Origin: Candidatus Iainarchaeum sp.
GTDB lineage: Archaea > Iainarchaeota > Iainarchaeia > Iainarchaeales > JAFCCJ01
Direction of reading: 5' to 3'
Length of the DNA: 30,821 nt
NCBI GenBank assembly: GCA_043816965.1
Contig: JBDRHK010000072.1
Location: forward strand, 1-30,821
The position numbers are program-made. This document shows, in pieces, positions 21,001 to 27,000 of this stretch; the first letter of the stretch is position 1, and every line of letters begins with the position of its first letter.

Positions 21001-24000
21001 TCCTCCCCTGGAAAGGTTGATGTAAGGTAAAGCATAACCCCCTCCTCGAAATTTCCTTCCAGCAATTCCTTGCCCACCAAATGGGTAATGTTTCTTGCGC
21101 CCCCAAAGCGCTGCTCCCCGAAATAGTTTGCAATTCCATTTTCCATTTCCTTGAAACATTTTTTAATCCTCTTCTCAACTTCCTTCTTCTCCAAATCAAT
21201 ATTCCTCACAGTAATCTCAAAGTCATTCCCTTTTAGTTTCCCAAGTTCCATCCTCTCATCACCCCATTCGGCATCCCTGAGGTCAATATACCTTGAATCA
21301 AATTTTTTCAGCAGGTTCCAGTCAGGCTTGTAAATTGAAATTTTTTGCGCGGTAATTGCCCTCTTGTCCTTCATTCCAGCAAACCCAATTCTCTTCCTGC
21401 TTGTGCGCAAAAATCGGGTAATTCTTCTCACAGCTTCATGGGTATCTACATTGAATTTCTCCATTGTGAGAATTACCTGCTCCTTATCAGGGTGCAAAAC
21501 AGGCCAATCCTTTTCCAGATTTATTTTTTCATTGTCGCTGAAGGCCTTAATCTCGCAAACTTCCCCGTCAGGGGTGATTTCCTTAACCCTAAAATCGGCG
21601 ATTCTCCTCTTTATTTCCCCTCCAATCCCTGGAGTTTCTGTTGAGTAATGGTTTATCGATGGCATTTTGAATCAGAAAAATTTTACTTATACCTTAAAAT
21701 TGCCCCTATTCCCCCAAAGCCCTTGAAGAACTGCTCTCCCTCAGGGGTGTCGGTTGAAATTATTTTCAGTTCTGCCCCGGTCTCGGCAGCCTTCTCAAGC
21801 ATAAAATCAAGGTAATCGGCATCCTCAAGAAGTTCAGTTTGGCCATTGCACTTTCCGCACTTTTCTCCCCCGGCCTCATAATTTGCGTCCTTAACCAGTT
21901 TCTCTTCCTGCAGGCCGCAGTTGTTGCACTGGAATTTTATAACTCCCCAATCAATTCCCTCAGAAAGCAGCAGTTCCTTAACCTTCCCAAGCTTAAGTGC
22001 CTCATTAACTTCTTTTTCTCCATATGCCGCAAGTTCATCCTTCGCAATTTGCTCCAAAAAATCATTTACAGCGCCCCTTTCTTTCATAAGGTCAGTATCC
22101 CGCAAAACCTCTTCACTTCTTTGCACAAGTTCCCTTATCCCTGATTCATCAGTGTATGAAATATCGACTGTTGAGATTATATTTTTCTTCAGCCTATGGT
22201 CAAGCAAGTCCCTGTTCAAAAAATAATTTTTTGTTATTCCTGGCCCCCCAATAATTAACCCCTTTAGTTTATCCCCGTATGGGAGAAATGCCAGGTTCAT
22301 CTTTTCACTCACCCTTTTGTAAAAGTCCTGGGCAGCCTCCTCCCTCAGGTGCTCGAAACGTTTGGCCGAATTGTGGACTAGTATGCCATTGGCAAGAAAG
22401 TTCTGCCTGCTGACTTCTATATCAGTCATTGGCACATGCTTTTTACATTTGGATATACTTTTTATTTTTACCGGAATTAACGGCCTTTCAAGTATTTTTT
22501 TAAACTGGGCAAAAAGTTTTTTATTTGACTTTACTTCGCCAATTATGGAGTTTTTGAATACCTCTTTACTCATAGATCTGCCATCCCTGAAAAAATTTGA
22601 GACTTTCGAGAAATTTTGCGTGTTCAGCCCCTCCCGCTCAAAGAGTTTCCTGATGAATTTGCCGCTTACAAGAACTTGCCTTACCTTACTTTTTCTATTC
22701 TCTGTCTTCTCTGTCAGTTTTTTGAGTTTTGCCTCCTTCTGTTTTGATGTAAAACCGATAAACCGGCCAAAAAGTTCTAAGGATTTTTTTTCAGTAATGT
22801 CAATGGTGAATCTATGGTTATCTGAGTAAGGGTTTCTATTTGAATCATATTCGTGAACAGAAGCAATTATTCCAAATCTTAGCAGTGCCAATTGTATCTG
22901 TATCGCGAGATTTTTGTTTATGATTCCAAGCCCAAGCCTCCCGGAAGTTACGTAGCCTTCTGCATCAAAAAAACCTTTCAGAAATCCCGCAAGCACCCCA
23001 TTTGGAGAGGCCAAGATATTCTGCGGAACAAGGGTTTCTTTCGCACTTTTTTTGCTAAAAAACTCATTTTTTATGAAGCGCACTATTGGTTTACCGGAAA
23101 CCCTCAATTGGTGGTAGTTTTTGCCTTCCCTGAATCTTAAACTCGTTTTTGCCCTGAATATTTTTCTGCATGATTTTTCGTAGAAATTGGCAATTTCTTG
23201 GGTTTGTTCGGAAAAACCAATCCTTTCATTTTCAAAATTGCCGTCTCCCAAAAAATAGCCCATTATTTGAGCAACTAATGGGCCAAGTTTTTCTGGCAAA
23301 ACTATGGTGCTCACCTGCGAGCAATAATTTCCAATAAATATTTCATGATCAATTTTTAGGGATTTACAGTAGTTTTTCAAAAACTCAAGTCTCGGGTTAA
23401 AATGGCTTATTTCAACTGCCGAAATAGTTGCTTGGTGCAATCCTGACAGTTTGCCAAGTTTTTTTTGTGAAAGTTTTGCCCCCTTTCTTGTATTGACCAA
23501 TAGTTTTATGCCTATATCGGATATTTTGTAGTTGTTAAAATAATTTGTTTTCAGTTTTTGTATTTTTCCTTTTGTATTTATTTTTTCAGGCATTAGTAAA
23601 GTGTCATTTTCTTTCAGTTCCCGTGCAGCCCTTTCCTTTATTTCGTTTTCTTCAAATATGAAAAAAGTGTGGTCGCCTGAAGATTCAACCGACATTCTTG
23701 GAAATTTTGTGGTTATCTGAATAGCTTGTTTTTTTGATTGCCACTTGTTTATAATTTGGGAATTTGTAATGCTAAAGTCTTCAAGATCTGCGGAAGTGAC
23801 CGTTAGTGGATTGTGCAGGTCTTTTATTTGAATTATTTTCCCATCCGCAAGTTGCACGAAGGTATCGTTTGCGAGGCATTGCCCCCCGGCCCTTGTCTTC
23901 CCCGCGACTCCTGAGGTGAATTTTCCCAAAATATCATATTTTTTCCCGACAAGGGCGGCAATTGTTGCCTCATTTTTATCGATTGTGACAAGCCCGTAAA

Positions 24001-27000
24001 TTTCGGAAGGTTTTGTCATCTCCTTTAGCGGAGCAAGATGGAACTTTGAATCACACCAATACAATTTCGTTTTCAAATCATTAATCGGCCTGATTGTGAA
24101 AAGCCTAATATCATTTCTTCCCTCAACAACAGAAACATTTCCCGCAAAAACAACCAGCCCCCTTTTTGGAATCTTGAAATTAATCTGCTTCAGGAAGTTG
24201 ATTATTTTCCTCAATGCCCCCTGCACATTTTTCCTTGTGCTGGGGCTCTTTATGTTCGAGCTCTGGCTGATTTCCTCTGTCAATTGCCCCATAACCGAAC
24301 TCCGGTCTGTTCCGAAGGGTATGTAAACCGTGATAAGTTCTGTCCCTTTGCCTTTGTGCTTGCTGAGTTTTTCCAGCTTTTTCTTGAACAGAACGATTTC
24401 TGACTGATTAACCTCGTCCAAATGCATTCTAGAGCCTCGCGTAATATTTTAATATGGTAATCATTTATATATGGTAGGAGTTGATGGTGTGAGTTCTATT
24501 TTCGACATGTTCTCAGAGGCCTATGAGGAGCAAAAAACTGATGATGAAATGGAAAGAGGGCATGAACCGGAGGAGGAATATTCCTCCAGTACTGATTATT
24601 CCTATTCCCCCAAACCCGCAATTACCTATGTGATTTCTGTGGGTGGGTCAATTCTCATTGACCAGAAGCCGGATTATTTGATGATTGCAAAATTTGCAGA
24701 ATCAATTAACAAACTCTCTGATGAAGGATATAGGATTGTTCTAGTTGTCGGAGGGGGAAAGGTCTGCAGGAATTATGTCGCCGCCGCAAAATCACTGGGA
24801 GCCAATAATTTCCAGCTGGATGAATTGGGAATTACAATTACAAGGGCAAATGCCTCGCTTCTTTTGCCTGTAATCAACAATGCACACAAGGCAGTCCTGA
24901 CCGAAGTAAACCAGGCAAGGCCTGTTCTTGATGTTGGAAAAATCCCTGTTTTTGGCGGCCTGCATCCAGGAATTACAACTGATGCGGTTGCGGCGCTTCT
25001 CGCAGAGGCATTGGACGGAATTTTCATAAACCTGACAAATGTGGACGGGGTTTACTCCATGGACCCGAAAAAGCACCCGCATGCAAAATTCTATGATGAA
25101 ATAGCATATAATGAGCTTATTTCCCTGATGAAATTGGGGGAAAGCAAGCCGGCGCAAAATTTAGTTTTAGACCTCCCCTGCTGCCTCATCCTTAAAAGGA
25201 GCAAACTAAAGGGGATGGTAATGAACGGGACAGATTTGGACAATTTCGAGGCAGCAATCCGCGGAGGGGAATTTAAGGGGACTGTAATAGGGGACAAGAA
25301 TGAGTGAGACTAAAACCGCGGAGATAATTTGGAAGATAGTTAGTCAGAAAGGATTTGCTAATTTAGATACTAAGATGGGTGATGAGCTTATATCAATTAT
25401 TGAAGCAAATAAGAAGGATTTTATTATATTGAAATTAGGGGGAACACGTTGTTTTACTGTTTCAGATGATTTTGTAAATAAACATGGTTTTAATGAAAGA
25501 CAAGAATACAAAACATTTCATGAAGGTCGCGAAGGGGCTTATTTACTTTTCCAAAAACAAGCTACGAACACCCCGCGCAAAAGAGCAAAGAAGACTTCTG
25601 GATCTCGAAAATCCAAGCCCATGGGCCGAAGCCCGAAACGCCCCCACTAATCCAACTCATCCAACTTAAATTCTTCCCACTTCTTTTTTCCCAGGACTAT
25701 TTCCAGTTCTGTCGGATTTAGGATTGGCTTTTTGAATGAGCTGTAATCCTCAATAACAATCCTCGGGCAGGCTGTGTTCACATAGGCATCAACTTCAACA
25801 CCCAGCAAATACTCAGGCATTATGTAGTCCATTGCAAGGATTATCGCCTTCTTCCCTTTGGATTTAATTAATTTCCTCAATTCCCCGGCCCTTTCCTTAA
25901 ACATCTGCCCTGATTTTGTGCTTATGAGAATGGCGAAGGAATGGGCATTCTGGGCTGATGCTATTGCCCCATGCCGTTTCCTCAGAAACAGCTCCCTTTC
26001 CTCCCCTAACTCCCTTATCTCCCCGCCAAGCGGATTAAAAATAAAGACAGGCTTATCTGTTAAAAAGGTAAATCCCAAAGGATGGAACAGGCCATCACCA
26101 ATAAAAACAACTGCATCGCATTTCTCCCTAACATTCTGGAATGATGAATAGTTACATCCTAAAACCTGGCCCTCTTTTGAAATTCTGCTGCTCCCTTTTC
26201 CCACATGAATCTTGAACTTTTTTCCGAGTGACTCCCTTACAAAATTCATATGGTCTGTGAACTGGATTGTTGAGGCAAGGCAGATATTTTTCAGATTCCT
26301 CTTTTTTAATTCCCCCTCCAGATTCCCAATCTGCGTAACCATCTTATTCTCATCAATGGAATAAAACAGCGGAAAGAAAAGGGCGTTATTGCTTCGGTGC
26401 ATTTTACTGTGCCCGAAATGTACAAGCAAATCCGCGCCAAGTTTTTCAGCCTTGTCACCTGCCAAATCACAGGCACCAAAACAGGGGTCCATAAGGACAA
26501 TGCATTCTGTGCCTGTTGATTCAATCTTTTCAATGATCTCCTCAGCCCTCACTTTCAGGCCTTCAGGAATCTGGACAACAACCAGTTTTGGTTTTCGTTT
26601 TTCAATTTCCCTGACAGCCCTGTCAAGATTTAGTTTTATCATGGTTAAATTGTGCTGGAAACACATTAAAAAATTGCCATTATCTCTTTTTTTCCAGCAA
26701 AAGCCTTTTTTGCTCTAAAAGCACAACCTGCTTTATCTTCTTCACAGCGTCAATATTAGCAGAAATAGAGTCAATGCCATATGCGACCAAATGCCTCACC
26801 ATTTCAGGGTTTGAGGCAGCCTGCCCGCAGATTGAGGTTTCAACCCCCCCATATCTGCATCTTCTAATAACTTCCTTAATCTGCCTCAGCACAGCAGGAT
26901 GCAATTCCGAAAAGTGCTTCTGAATTCTCCCATTGTTCCTGTCAATTCCCAAAGTCAATTGTGTTAGGTCATTGGTTCCGAAAGAAACAAAATCAATTCC

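What a model noticed while it worked through the whole genome (the two positions that open the first line are those of the whole stretch)
21683..24427. Inteins at the GGQ loop of release factor aRF1 and at the cluster-binding cysteine of IscU
This 1.34-Mb genome carries at least 13 inteins; two sit at places where I know of no intein: in aRF1 (g01137, C72:21683-24427) a 495-aa intein follows the catalytic ..TRAGGQ motif directly (GGQ|C..VHN|SAKRF), and in the Fe-S scaffold IscU (g00594, C36:3214-4743) a 379-aa intein precedes the ligand cysteine (NPK|C..VHN|CGD). I read both as active inteins that hold translation termination and Fe-S assembly hostage until they splice. New insertion points in two universal proteins, one at the peptidyl-tRNA hydrolysis centre, would extend the rule that inteins home to catalytic loops and offer new conditional switches.
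Evidence so far: pfam.tsv Intein_splicing and LAGLIDADG_3 rows, and the junction sequences. Other inteins: PolD large subunit, MCM, two KlbA/T2SSE ATPases, A-ATPase subunit A, EF2 (P-loop AHIDHGK|C..HN|TT), RtcB, Top6A (..|TDGDPYG), NrdD (Ser1..HN|C), a HerA-like ATPase g00055 (Walker A GGGK|C..HN|S; extein family from call 50), and split Lon. The C-exteins align to Swiss-Prot aRF1 180-413 and IscU 37-128.
(Added by a program. Inside this text positions count along the whole contig: contig position 1 is position 1 of the stretch shown here. "Call 12" and the like, gene names such as g00115 and contig names such as C1 are that model's own, and its searches are not shown. The text may have been shortened before it was handed on; [...] marks where a part breaks off. 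The agent that wrote the report below was given it as the finding of a first reader that could run no searches.)

Follow-up and report, generated by a model that had tools for sequence, protein, structure and literature searches.

The report
Mobile intein inside archaeal release factor
The only release-factor gene of this small archaeal genome is interrupted, right after its catalytic GGQ motif, by an ordinary self-splicing mobile intein that turns out to be common in related tiny archaea but seems never to have been described in a paper.

Summary
The IscU intein on contig C36 (379 aa, NPK|C...HN|CGD) is also real. The aRF1 insert is a canonical class-1 intein. It has Cys1, SxxH, a block-F Asp, His-Asn and Ser+1. 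It also carries a two-motif LAGLIDADG endonuclease, a Cro/C1-type HTH accessory domain and a second helical accessory region. The AlphaFold model (pLDDT 92.7) matches solved archaeal homing inteins best. It is the genome's only aRF1. The same-genus relative has a syntenic, intein-free GGQ|S site.

The site is not peculiar to this genome. The same insertion occurs in 45-46 of 215 species genomes of the phylum. It is in 119 of the 120 best database homologues (all 120 share the C-terminal HN|S junction) and in genomes labelled Iainarchaeota, Woesearchaeota/Nanoarchaeota, Aenigmatarchaeota and Micrarchaeota. HTH-less, mini-intein and endonuclease-degenerate variants exist. The IscU intein is similarly widespread.

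No paper I could search describes either site. This is therefore a new, apparently unpublished, insertion allele of a well-known kind of element. The "hostage/conditional switch" reading has no evidence. Interest is moderate.

The parts
21683..24427 (-). aRF1 precursor gene (914 codons plus stop); the only aRF1 in the genome
   Evidence: ORF. TIGR03676 scores 448.5 bits. The own-genome search finds only this aRF1 plus a weak paralogue-like hit on C78 that was not identified further.
23879..24427 (-). N-extein, residues 1-183 (eRF1 domain 1 and the start of domain 2, ending ..KTRAGGQ)
   Evidence: Matches TIGR03676 positions 2-174. The NIKS and YxCxxxF motifs are visible in the translation; the motif names are recalled.
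23879..23887 (-). GGQ codons (residues 181-183). Gln183 is the -1 residue of the intein.
   Evidence: 119 of 120 homologues read GGQ|C.
22370..23878 (-). Intein, 503 aa (precursor residues 184-686), from Cys1 to His-Asn
   Evidence: AlphaFold model with pLDDT 92.7 and pTM 0.91. Best Foldseek hits are the TliVMA intein, PI-PfuI and PI-TkoII. G+C is 36.5% against 43-44% in the exteins.
23324..23518 (-). Cro/C1 (XRE)-type helix-turn-helix accessory domain, intein residues about 121-185 (five helices)
   Evidence: Pfam HTH_3 at 314-363, 27.1 bits against a cut-off of 23. The profile matches C.BclI at 5.9e-12, and also HipB, SinR and P22 C2. Helices are in the model. Present in 106 of 120 homologues and absent in 14.
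22754..23296 (-). LAGLIDADG homing-endonuclease domain (intein about 195-375). The motifs are GYFLGDG (23240-23260) and GFFDAEG (22955-22975).
   Evidence: LAGLIDADG_3 at 1.8e-15. D212 is invariant and E307 is kept in at least 90% of the 28-genome alignment. Asp is kept in 116 of 120 and Glu/Asp in 116 of 120. I-DmoI and I-Tsp061I are fold matches.
22490..22744 (-). Second, helical accessory region between the endonuclease and the C-terminal splicing strands (intein about 379-463)
   Evidence: Helices 379-463 in the model. The position matches the accessory domain described for the TliVMA intein (PMC8966425, passages seen). It has no Pfam match. Its role is inferred.
22367..22375 (-). C-terminal splice junction His685-Asn686 | Ser687
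   Evidence: HN|S in 120 of 120 homologues.
21683..22369 (-). C-extein, residues 687-914 plus stop (rest of eRF1 domain 2, domain 3 with a CxxC..CxxC insert)
   Evidence: Matches TIGR03676 positions 174-402 at 2.0e-76. eRF1_2 and eRF1_3.

Best explanation
The aRF1 gene carries a selfish, mobile class-1 intein inserted between Gln183 of the catalytic GGQ motif and the native Ser that follows it.

**How it works.**
- The gene is translated as a 914-aa precursor. This precursor cannot act as a release factor, because 503 residues sit at the tip of the loop that must reach the peptidyl-transferase centre.
- The intein then removes itself by the standard four-step chemistry. Cys1 makes an N-S acyl shift. 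Ser+1 attacks the thioester. Asn503 cyclises. An O-N shift restores a normal GGQ-S peptide bond. This yields a 411-aa aRF1 and a free 503-aa protein.
- The free protein is a monomeric two-motif LAGLIDADG homing endonuclease with two accessory DNA-binding modules, one of them a Cro/C1-type HTH. It should cut intein-free aRF1 alleles at the very conserved GGQ|S coding sequence. Repair would then copy the intein in.

**What is shown.** The anatomy, the conserved catalytic residues, the fold, the single-copy status, the empty orthologous site in the sister species, and the patchy distribution across several phyla.

**What is inferred.** That splicing and DNA cleavage actually occur.

The IscU intein is the same kind of element, inserted before the first cluster-ligand cysteine, which serves as its +1 nucleophile.
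For: - **Precise in-frame insertion.** The TIGR03676 profile reads 2-174, then 174-402.
- **Empty site in the sister species.** Same-genus genome G152 has TRAGGQ|SAKRF with no insert, and its exteins are 368/411 identical. Both flanks align across a clean 1.5-kb presence/absence: window 20687-22363 and 23880-25308 at 83-86%.
- **Only aRF1 in the genome**.
- **Splicing residues are conserved.** C1, S67, H70, D486, H502 and N503 are invariant in 28 genomes whose inteins are 39-52% identical to the window's. Among the 120 database homologues, GGQ|C occurs in 119, HN|S in 120, [ST]xxH in 120 and the block-F Asp in 120.
- **Endonuclease acidic residues are kept** in 116 of 120. The exceptions are 3 mini-inteins and 1 substitution at each motif.
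- **Structure.** The model has pLDDT 92.7. Its best structural matches are HEN-associated archaeal inteins: 7qss at 5.8e-24, 1dq3, 2cw7 and PI-SceI.
- **Patchy distribution.** 41 of 215 phylum genomes have a strong orthologue. Four or five more have a mini or divergent intein at the same profile position. These lie in 14 families. Genera are polymorphic: in g6, G011, G012 and G014 carry it and G013, G015 and G016 do not.
- **Signs of mobility.** Intein identity is flat at about 46-48% within and between phyla. Exteins drop from 58% to 39-41%. The extein tree needs 2 phylum-label changes and the intein tree needs 5. Three inteins from Iainarchaeota genomes are nested in the Woesearchaeota clade (SH-aLRT 97).
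- **Composition.** The intein is AT-richer than its host gene.
Against: - Nothing here shows splicing or DNA cleavage.
- The nearest sampled intein is only 52% identical, so no recent transfer into this lineage is documented. Loss from G152 is as possible as gain here.
- No clear co-conversion tract surrounds the site. Synonymous differences to G152 are 0.45-0.50 at the junction against a mean of 0.32, but equal peaks occur elsewhere.
- The intein tree is still largely sorted by phylum, so most transmission may be vertical or within a phylum.
- The block-B Thr is a Ser in 117 of 120. I take this to be harmless, but that rests on recall.
Confidence: 0.85

Rival explanations
1. The intein is retained as a conditional switch, so that translation termination (and Fe-S assembly, for IscU) is gated by an environmental cue that controls splicing, for example redox state acting on Cys1.
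For: - The intein sits at the catalytic motif of a single-copy essential gene, so the precursor must be inactive.
- Conditional splicing is documented for other archaeal and bacterial inteins (recalled; Topilina et al. 2015 appeared only in the reference list of PMC4760082).
- The intein has persisted in many lineages.
Against: - No cue-sensing feature was identified.
- About four fifths of phylum genomes, including the same-genus relative, do without the intein.
- Mini-inteins and HTH-less forms occupy the same site. Whatever is conserved is therefore splicing itself, not a particular regulatory module.
- Insertion at catalytic motifs is explained equally well by the conservation of the DNA target.
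Confidence: 0.1
2. The intein in this genome is a fixed, no longer mobile passenger. It still splices, but its endonuclease is inactive or has no remaining targets, and it is inherited only vertically.
For: - The closest known relative of the intein is only 52% identical.
- The intein tree is mostly sorted by phylum.
- No co-conversion signal was found.
- Degenerate forms (G028: motif 1 reads V for G before the kept acidic Asp, motif 2 Glu to Lys) and mini forms show that endonuclease decay does happen at this site.
Against: - Both catalytic acidic residues and the HTH are intact here and are conserved across 28 genomes.
- An empty site exists in the sister species.
- At least two well-supported cross-phylum placements are seen.
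Confidence: 0.2
3. The interrupted gene is an assembly chimera or a dead gene, and the real aRF1 lies in the unassembled roughly 14% of the genome.
For: Genome completeness is 86%.
Against: - The same uninterrupted architecture appears in 73 of the 80 genome loci fetched from independent assemblies. The other 7 have only one junction within the fetched stretch. It also appears in 28 of the 30 phylum loci, the other 2 being truncated.
- The ORF is open over 914 codons and every catalytic residue is intact.
Confidence: 0.02

Closest known systems
HEN-associated archaeal inteins with accessory domains (TliVMA intein 7qss, PI-PfuI 1dq3, PI-TkoII 2cw7)
   Same: Same three-part plan: a HINT splicing domain, a nested two-motif LAGLIDADG endonuclease and extra DNA-binding accessory domain(s). 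They are the best structural matches and the best profile matches. HTH-like accessory domains were described for TliVMA and PI-TkoII (PMC8966425, passages seen).
   Different: The host protein and site differ (aRF1 GGQ|S rather than the V-ATPase, RNR or DNA polymerase). Sequence identity is only 13-16%. Here a bona fide Pfam HTH_3 / Cro-C1 domain lies between the N-terminal splicing lobe and the endonuclease, and a second helical region lies after the endonuclease. Natural forms with and without the HTH share the same site.
Inteins in other translation GTPases (archaeal aIF2/IF-2 and EF2 inteins)
   Same: These are inteins in core translation factors at a catalytic loop. This genome's own EF2 carries one. 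aIF2 is listed among archaeal intein hosts in Novikova 2016 (passage seen).
   Different: Those sit in P-loop GTPase motifs. aRF1 is not an NTPase, and the GGQ loop acts in the ribosome's peptidyl-transferase centre. Novikova 2016 states that core transcription and translation components contain few inteins.
Mycobacterial SufB intein (Fe-S assembly)
   Same: For the IscU half of the finding: an intein in an Fe-S cluster assembly protein. I recall this; the listing showed only M. tuberculosis suf-operon papers.
   Different: The protein differs (SufB rather than the IscU/NifU_N scaffold), as do the domain of life and the site. Here the +1 nucleophile is the first cluster-ligand Cys (HN|CGD in 120 of 120).
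PI-SceI (yeast VMA1 intein)
   Same: A bifunctional splicing and homing enzyme with a DNA-recognition region added to the splicing domain. It is a fold match at E about 1e-12.
   Different: It is a poor global superposition (rmsd about 25 A, TM 0.4). Its accessory region has a different fold and a different location.

Membership tests
Class-1 intein (HINT domain) | In-frame insertion whose removal restores a continuous host protein | tested here: met
   TIGR03676 reads 2-174, then 174-402. The intein-free orthologue in G152 reads TRAGGQ|SAKRF.
Class-1 intein (HINT domain) | Nucleophile at intein position 1 (Cys/Ser) | tested here: met
   Cys184. It is invariant in 28 of 28 and in 119 of 120 (one row is gapped).
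Class-1 intein (HINT domain) | Block B TxxH | tested here: met
   S67-G-D-H70. SxxH occurs in 117 and TxxH in 3 of 120. That Ser can replace Thr rests on recall.
Class-1 intein (HINT domain) | Block F Asp; block G penultimate His and terminal Asn | tested here: met
   D486, H502 and N503 are invariant. Each is present in 120 of 120.
Class-1 intein (HINT domain) | +1 extein nucleophile (Ser/Thr/Cys) | tested here: met
   Ser687 is the native residue after GGQ. For IscU it is Cys.
Class-1 intein (HINT domain) | HINT fold | tested here: met
   AlphaFold model with pLDDT 92.7. Top Foldseek hits are solved inteins. The profile also hits the mini-inteins 2jmz, 6rpq and 1mi8.
Class-1 intein (HINT domain) | Protein splicing activity | not testable with these tools
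   Inferred from intact residues and from this being the only aRF1 gene.
LAGLIDADG homing endonuclease (two-motif, monomeric) | Two LAGLIDADG motifs, each ending in a catalytic acidic residue | tested here: met
   GYFLGD212G and GFFDAE307G. Conserved in 116 of 120.
LAGLIDADG homing endonuclease (two-motif, monomeric) | alpha-beta-beta-alpha-beta-beta-alpha fold | tested here: met
   I-DmoI and I-Tsp061I match with TM (by target) 0.65-0.73. Pfam LAGLIDADG_3 at 1.8e-15.
LAGLIDADG homing endonuclease (two-motif, monomeric) | Site-specific cleavage of the intein-free allele | not testable with these tools
   Supported only indirectly, by the patchy distribution and the tree incongruence.
aRF1/eRF1 class-I release factor | Full-length match over the curated cut-off, three eRF1 domains, GGQ | tested here: met
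   TIGR03676 scores 448.5 bits against 234.7. eRF1_1, eRF1_2 and eRF1_3. GGQ is residues 181-183.
Cro/C1 (XRE) HTH_3 domain | Pfam gathering score and five-helix fold | tested here: met
   27.1 bits against a cut-off of 23. The profile hits C.BclI at 5.9e-12, and also HipB, SinR and P22 C2. Five helices at 121-185 in the model. DNA binding was not tested.
IscU/NifU_N scaffold (second gene of the finding) | NifU_N match restored across the insert; ligand Cys in CGD | tested here: met
   PF01592 at 2.4e-37 in two stretches. HN|CGD in 120 of 120.

The most novel reading that the evidence does not exclude
The aRF1 GGQ intein may be one node of a DPANN-wide pool of exchanging inteins. In this pool, discrete DNA-binding modules taken from XRE-type transcription factors are gained, lost and repositioned.
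- At this site the HTH lies before the endonuclease.
- In this genome's MCM and T2SSE inteins it lies after the endonuclease.
- In 14 of 120 aRF1 inteins it is absent.

This would be natural evidence for the accessory-domain-swapping route to new homing sites proposed from engineering work on VMA inteins. It would also explain how inteins reached non-NTPase targets such as the GGQ loop and the IscU ligand cysteine. A bolder extension is that the excised 503-aa protein, with its intact Cro/C1 HTH, also acts as a DNA-binding regulator in the cell.
Probability: 0.15. Interest if true: 0.65.

Novelty: new member of a known kind. Interest (0 to 1): 0.4.

Why it matters
**For intein biology.** It adds two insertion sites that I could not find in print. 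Both lie in universal, non-NTPase proteins, and one is exactly at the GGQ motif that hydrolyses peptidyl-tRNA. This fits the rule that homing inteins settle where the DNA is most conserved. It also shows that small DPANN genomes are unusually intein-rich: 11 or more in 1.34 Mb.

**For engineering.** The natural series at one site (full intein with HTH, without HTH, degenerate endonuclease, mini-intein, empty site) is a ready-made set for studying the homing cycle and accessory-domain function. The 142-144-aa mini-inteins that splice at GGQ|S or x|CGD could be useful tools.

**For annotation.** Public records name some of these essential release factors 'helix-turn-helix domain-containing protein' or 'LAGLIDADG family homing endonuclease'. 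That can make aRF1 look absent from DPANN genomes.

It does not change what is known about how inteins work.

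Tried and rejected
- **Co-conversion tract.** I compared the window's extein DNA with G152 codon by codon. Synonymous differences are somewhat raised at the junction (0.45-0.50 against a mean of 0.32), but similar peaks occur at codons 71-90 and 301-320. Inconclusive.
- **Public sequencing runs.** Only three runs hold 6-8% of the sampled words. Laying them gave a few short contigs, including one 266-nt piece identical to part of the intein. There was no contig joining across the intein and nothing usable about expression.
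- **In-frame stops in relatives' aRF1.** One search flagged '1 TAA/TAG/TGA' in several relatives. I fetched seven. In six, the stop is simply the terminal codon caught by the profile. Only G055 has an internal TGA. There is no sign of recoding.
- **Genomes that looked split but carry no intein.** G134 is broken by contig ends and G196 is broken into adjacent frames. Both are dropped from the count.
- **Record labels.** Labels such as Methanosarcinales, Chloroflexi, Aminicenantes, Falkowbacteria and Thaumarchaeota appear on intein-bearing loci. Several of these are the same contigs as genomes of the window's phylum. The unlabelled or odd-labelled set has exteins close to the Woesearchaeota set (55% against 59% within that set). 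I did not take them as evidence for spread outside DPANN.
- **Sources that were closed or not held.** The InBase paper was not held, so absence from InBase rests on recall only. One of three supplement files of Novikova 2016 could not be searched.

Full report
**1. What is there.** The window carries an uninterrupted 914-codon ORF at 21683-24427 on the minus strand.
- Pfam finds the three eRF1 domains, with domain 2 split in two. Between the halves lie Intein_splicing (192-686), LAGLIDADG_3 (478-558) and HTH_3 (314-363).
- NCBIfam's aRF1 equivalog TIGR03676 scores 448.5 bits against a cut-off of 234.7.
- The junctions read ..KTRAGGQ|CLANDT...GILVHN|SAKRF. GGQ is residues 181-183, Cys1 is residue 184, His-Asn is 685-686 and Ser+1 is 687.
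- In a six-frame search of the whole genome the aRF1 profile matches 2-174 and then 174-402 of this gene. The only other hit is weak and lies in a 370-aa frame on another contig, which I did not identify.
- This is therefore the organism's only aRF1 in an 86%-complete assembly.
- The surrounding window is ordinary archaeal chromosome: PCNA, primase subunits, GINS, aIF2-alpha, TruD, an amino-acid-kinase-family gene, Dph2, PEP synthase/PPDK-type enzyme and uL16.

**2. Anatomy of the insert.** I aligned the orthologous inteins of 28 genomes of the same phylum. They are 39-52% identical to the window's.
- The invariant residues are those that define a class-1 intein: Cys1, Ser67 and His70 (block B, SxxH), Asp486 (block F), and His502-Asn503.
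- The acidic residues of the two LAGLIDADG motifs are kept: Asp212 is invariant and Glu307 is kept in at least 90%.
- Several residues of the HTH are also invariant (R131, Q138, S153, E156).
- AlphaFold2 on this alignment gives a confident model, with mean pLDDT 92.7 and pTM 0.91.
- The model shows N-terminal HINT strands, a five-helix bundle at 121-185, an alpha/beta endonuclease core at about 195-375, a second helical region at 379-463, and C-terminal HINT strands.
- Foldseek ranks solved HEN-associated archaeal inteins first: the TliVMA intein at 5.8e-24, then PI-PfuI, PI-TkoII and the PhoVMA intein. PI-SceI follows. The free-standing LAGLIDADG enzymes I-DmoI and I-Tsp061I match the core.
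- The alignment profile hits the same inteins in the PDB. For positions 114-187 it hits Cro/C1-type regulators: C.BclI at 5.9e-12, HipB, SinR and P22 C2.
- HTH-like 'accessory domains' that modulate DNA cleavage have been described for TliVMA and PI-TkoII. An engineered swap with the 434-repressor domain has also been described (PMC8966425; I saw passages only).
- So the HTH is a known kind of intein module, here in a clear Pfam HTH_3 form.

**3. Empty site in the sister species.** The one other genome of the same genus (G152) has a one-piece aRF1.
- Its sequence reads TRAGGQ|SAKRF, and it is 368/411 identical to the window's exteins.
- At the DNA level, window 20687-22363 and 23880-25308 align to the G152 locus at 83% and 86%. 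The 1.5-kb intein lies in between and is replaced by nothing.
- The intein is AT-richer, at 36.5% G+C, than its exteins at 43-44%.

**4. How common it is.**
- In the 215 species genomes of the phylum, 213 have aRF1.
- 41 genomes, counting the window's own, carry a strong orthologue of this intein (E<=1e-53). The next-best hits, at E>=1e-43, are inteins in other genes.
- Seven further genomes had a 'split' aRF1. I inspected all seven:
  - G100 and G177 have a 140-143-aa mini-intein at profile position 174.
  - G173 and G174 have a divergent intein of about 434 aa at the same position.
  - G176 is probably intein-bearing but is broken over two contigs.
  - G134 and G196 are assembly or frame breaks without an insert, and I dropped them.
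- That gives 45-46 of 215 genomes, in 14 of 37 families. Genera are polymorphic. In g6, G011, G012 and G014 have the intein and G013, G015 and G016 do not.
- In the 30 loci fetched, 28 have complete inteins and 2 are cut by contig ends. In the alignment 29 of the 30 show the GGQ|C junction and all 30 show HN|S.
- One genome (G028) has a degenerate endonuclease: motif 1 reads V for G before the kept acidic Asp, and the motif-2 Glu is replaced by Lys.

**5. Spread beyond the phylum.**
The best 120 are all aRF1 with an intein.
- Aligned, these 120 show GGQ|C in 119, HN|S in 120, [ST]xxH in 120 and the block-F Asp in 120. The LAGLIDADG Asp is kept in 116 and Glu/Asp in 116. The HTH is present in 106 and absent in 14, which include three mini-inteins of 142-144 aa.
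- Source names include Diapherotrites/Iainarchaeum, Woesearchaeota and Aenigmarchaeota.
- JGI already labels some of them 'peptide subunit release factor 1 (eRF1)/intein/homing endonuclease'. NCBI names several 'helix-turn-helix domain-containing protein' or 'LAGLIDADG family homing endonuclease'.
- A scan of one genome per prokaryote species found 194 relatives of the intein with a single peptide pattern. The best 80 are 40-53% identical. They come from records titled Iainarchaeum, Woesearchaeota, Nanoarchaeota (including the single-cell genome SCGC AAA011-G17) and Aenigmatarchaeota.
- 73 of those 80 show the complete GGQ|C..HN|S arrangement. The other 7 have only one junction within the fetched stretch.
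- The ESM Atlas holds two clusters of aRF1 with LAGLIDADG, of 88 and 56 members. The commonest phyla among the members with a known phylum are Microcaldota (Micrarchaeota in NCBI's lineage) and Nanobdellota.

**6. Evidence for mobility.**
- Across 71 genomes, intein identity is nearly flat. It is 48% within Iainarchaeota and 46% between Iainarchaeota and either Woesearchaeota/Nanoarchaeota or Aenigmatarchaeota.
- Extein identity falls from 58% within the phylum to 39-41% between phyla.
- The analysis used 56 rows with a usable phylum label; I left out the 15 with unclear labels. On these rows the extein tree needs the minimum of 2 label changes. The intein tree needs 5.
- Three inteins from one Iainarchaeota family sit inside the Woesearchaeota clade (SH-aLRT 97). 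One Aenigmatarchaeota intein sits with Woesearchaeota rows (99).
- The window's intein groups with that of G181, which belongs to a different family (97).
- This indicates some horizontal movement on a mostly phylum-sorted background. It does not show a recent arrival here, because the nearest intein is only 52% identical.

**7. The IscU half of the finding.**
- C36:3214-4743 (-) encodes a 509-aa NifU_N protein. It is interrupted at GNPK|C...VHN|CGD by a 379-aa LAGLIDADG intein.
- The database search returned 457 hits (capped). All 120 listed share x|C..HN|CGD. The LAGLIDADG Glu is kept in 120 of 120 and the Asp in 118 of 120.
- Names include Diapherotrites, Aenigmatarchaeota and Nanoarchaeota.
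- In the phylum, 13 of 215 genomes, counting the window's own, have a strong orthologue (E<=1e-83). The same-genus relative has none with this query.

**8. Mechanism.**
- Shown: the parts list, conservation, fold, single-copy status, empty site and distribution.
- Inferred from established intein chemistry: the precursor is inactive because the insert sits at the tip of the GGQ loop. Cys184, Ser687 and Asn686 carry out standard four-step splicing and restore GGQ-S. The released protein is a homing endonuclease aimed at the highly conserved GGQ|S coding DNA, helped by its HTH and second accessory region.
- I saw no feature that points to regulated splicing. The 'hostage' idea remains speculation.

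**9. Literature.**
- Ten full-text searches found no paper describing an intein in aRF1/eRF1 or in IscU.
- The 2016 survey by Novikova et al. does not list them. I checked the main text by term search, and 2 of 3 supplement files were searched. It remarks that core translation components contain few inteins.
- Two eukaryote intein surveys do not mention eRF1 or IscU (term searches of the main text only).
- InBase itself could not be consulted.
- So 'undescribed in print' is plausible but not proven, and the sequences themselves have long been public.

**10. Verdict.** This is a real, canonical and widespread homing intein at a site that appears to be unpublished. It is a new member of a known kind, and of moderate interest.

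Noticed in passing
G000:C5:4372-7911 (MCM) and G000:C15:14113-17229 (T2SSE ATPase): Two other inteins of this genome also contain a Pfam HTH_3 domain, but placed after the LAGLIDADG domain (MCM 703-746, T2SSE 791-836). In the aRF1 intein it lies before the endonuclease. So 3 of the 11 inteins carry an XRE-type HTH, in two different positions.
   Followed up: partly
G000:C4:7940-10525: An 862-aa ORF carries an intein (residues 75-498) with a LAGLIDADG domain. Its exteins have no Pfam match at E<=1e-4.
   Followed up: no
L148 (G055:C22:33526-35116, minus strand): In this relative's intein-free aRF1, an in-frame TGA sits where the zinc-ribbon-like CxxC..CxxC insert of domain 3 would have a Cys (context ..QKAE*HSCG..). 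It could be a sequencing error, a mutation or a Sec/Cys-type recoding. It is a single case.
   Followed up: no
L058, L112, L132, L055, L078 and other loci: Records titled Chloroflexi bacterium, Aminicenantes bacterium, Falkowbacteria bacterium, Thaumarchaeota archaeon or 'uncultured Methanosarcinales archaeon' carry a DPANN-type aRF1 with this intein. Several are the same contigs as genomes placed in the window's phylum (compare). The submitters' taxonomy labels look wrong.
   Followed up: partly
G100:C23:13002-14612 and G177:C1:136900-138531; proteins P0109, P0110, P0114: Mini-inteins of about 140-144 aa, without an endonuclease, sit at the same GGQ|S site. They are natural compact splicing domains for this junction.
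   Followed up: partly
window 11933-12808 (+), 12811-14091 (-), 15392-16201 (+), 19605-20240 (+), 30140-30781 (-): Five ORFs of 211-426 aa in the window have no Pfam match at E<=1e-5.
   Followed up: no
G103:C121:1851-4227: This intein-bearing aRF1 has its C-extein broken into two frames: profile 174-222 in the 673-aa frame, then 259-402 in a separate 145-aa frame. It is either a frameshifted, decaying copy or an assembly error.
   Followed up: no
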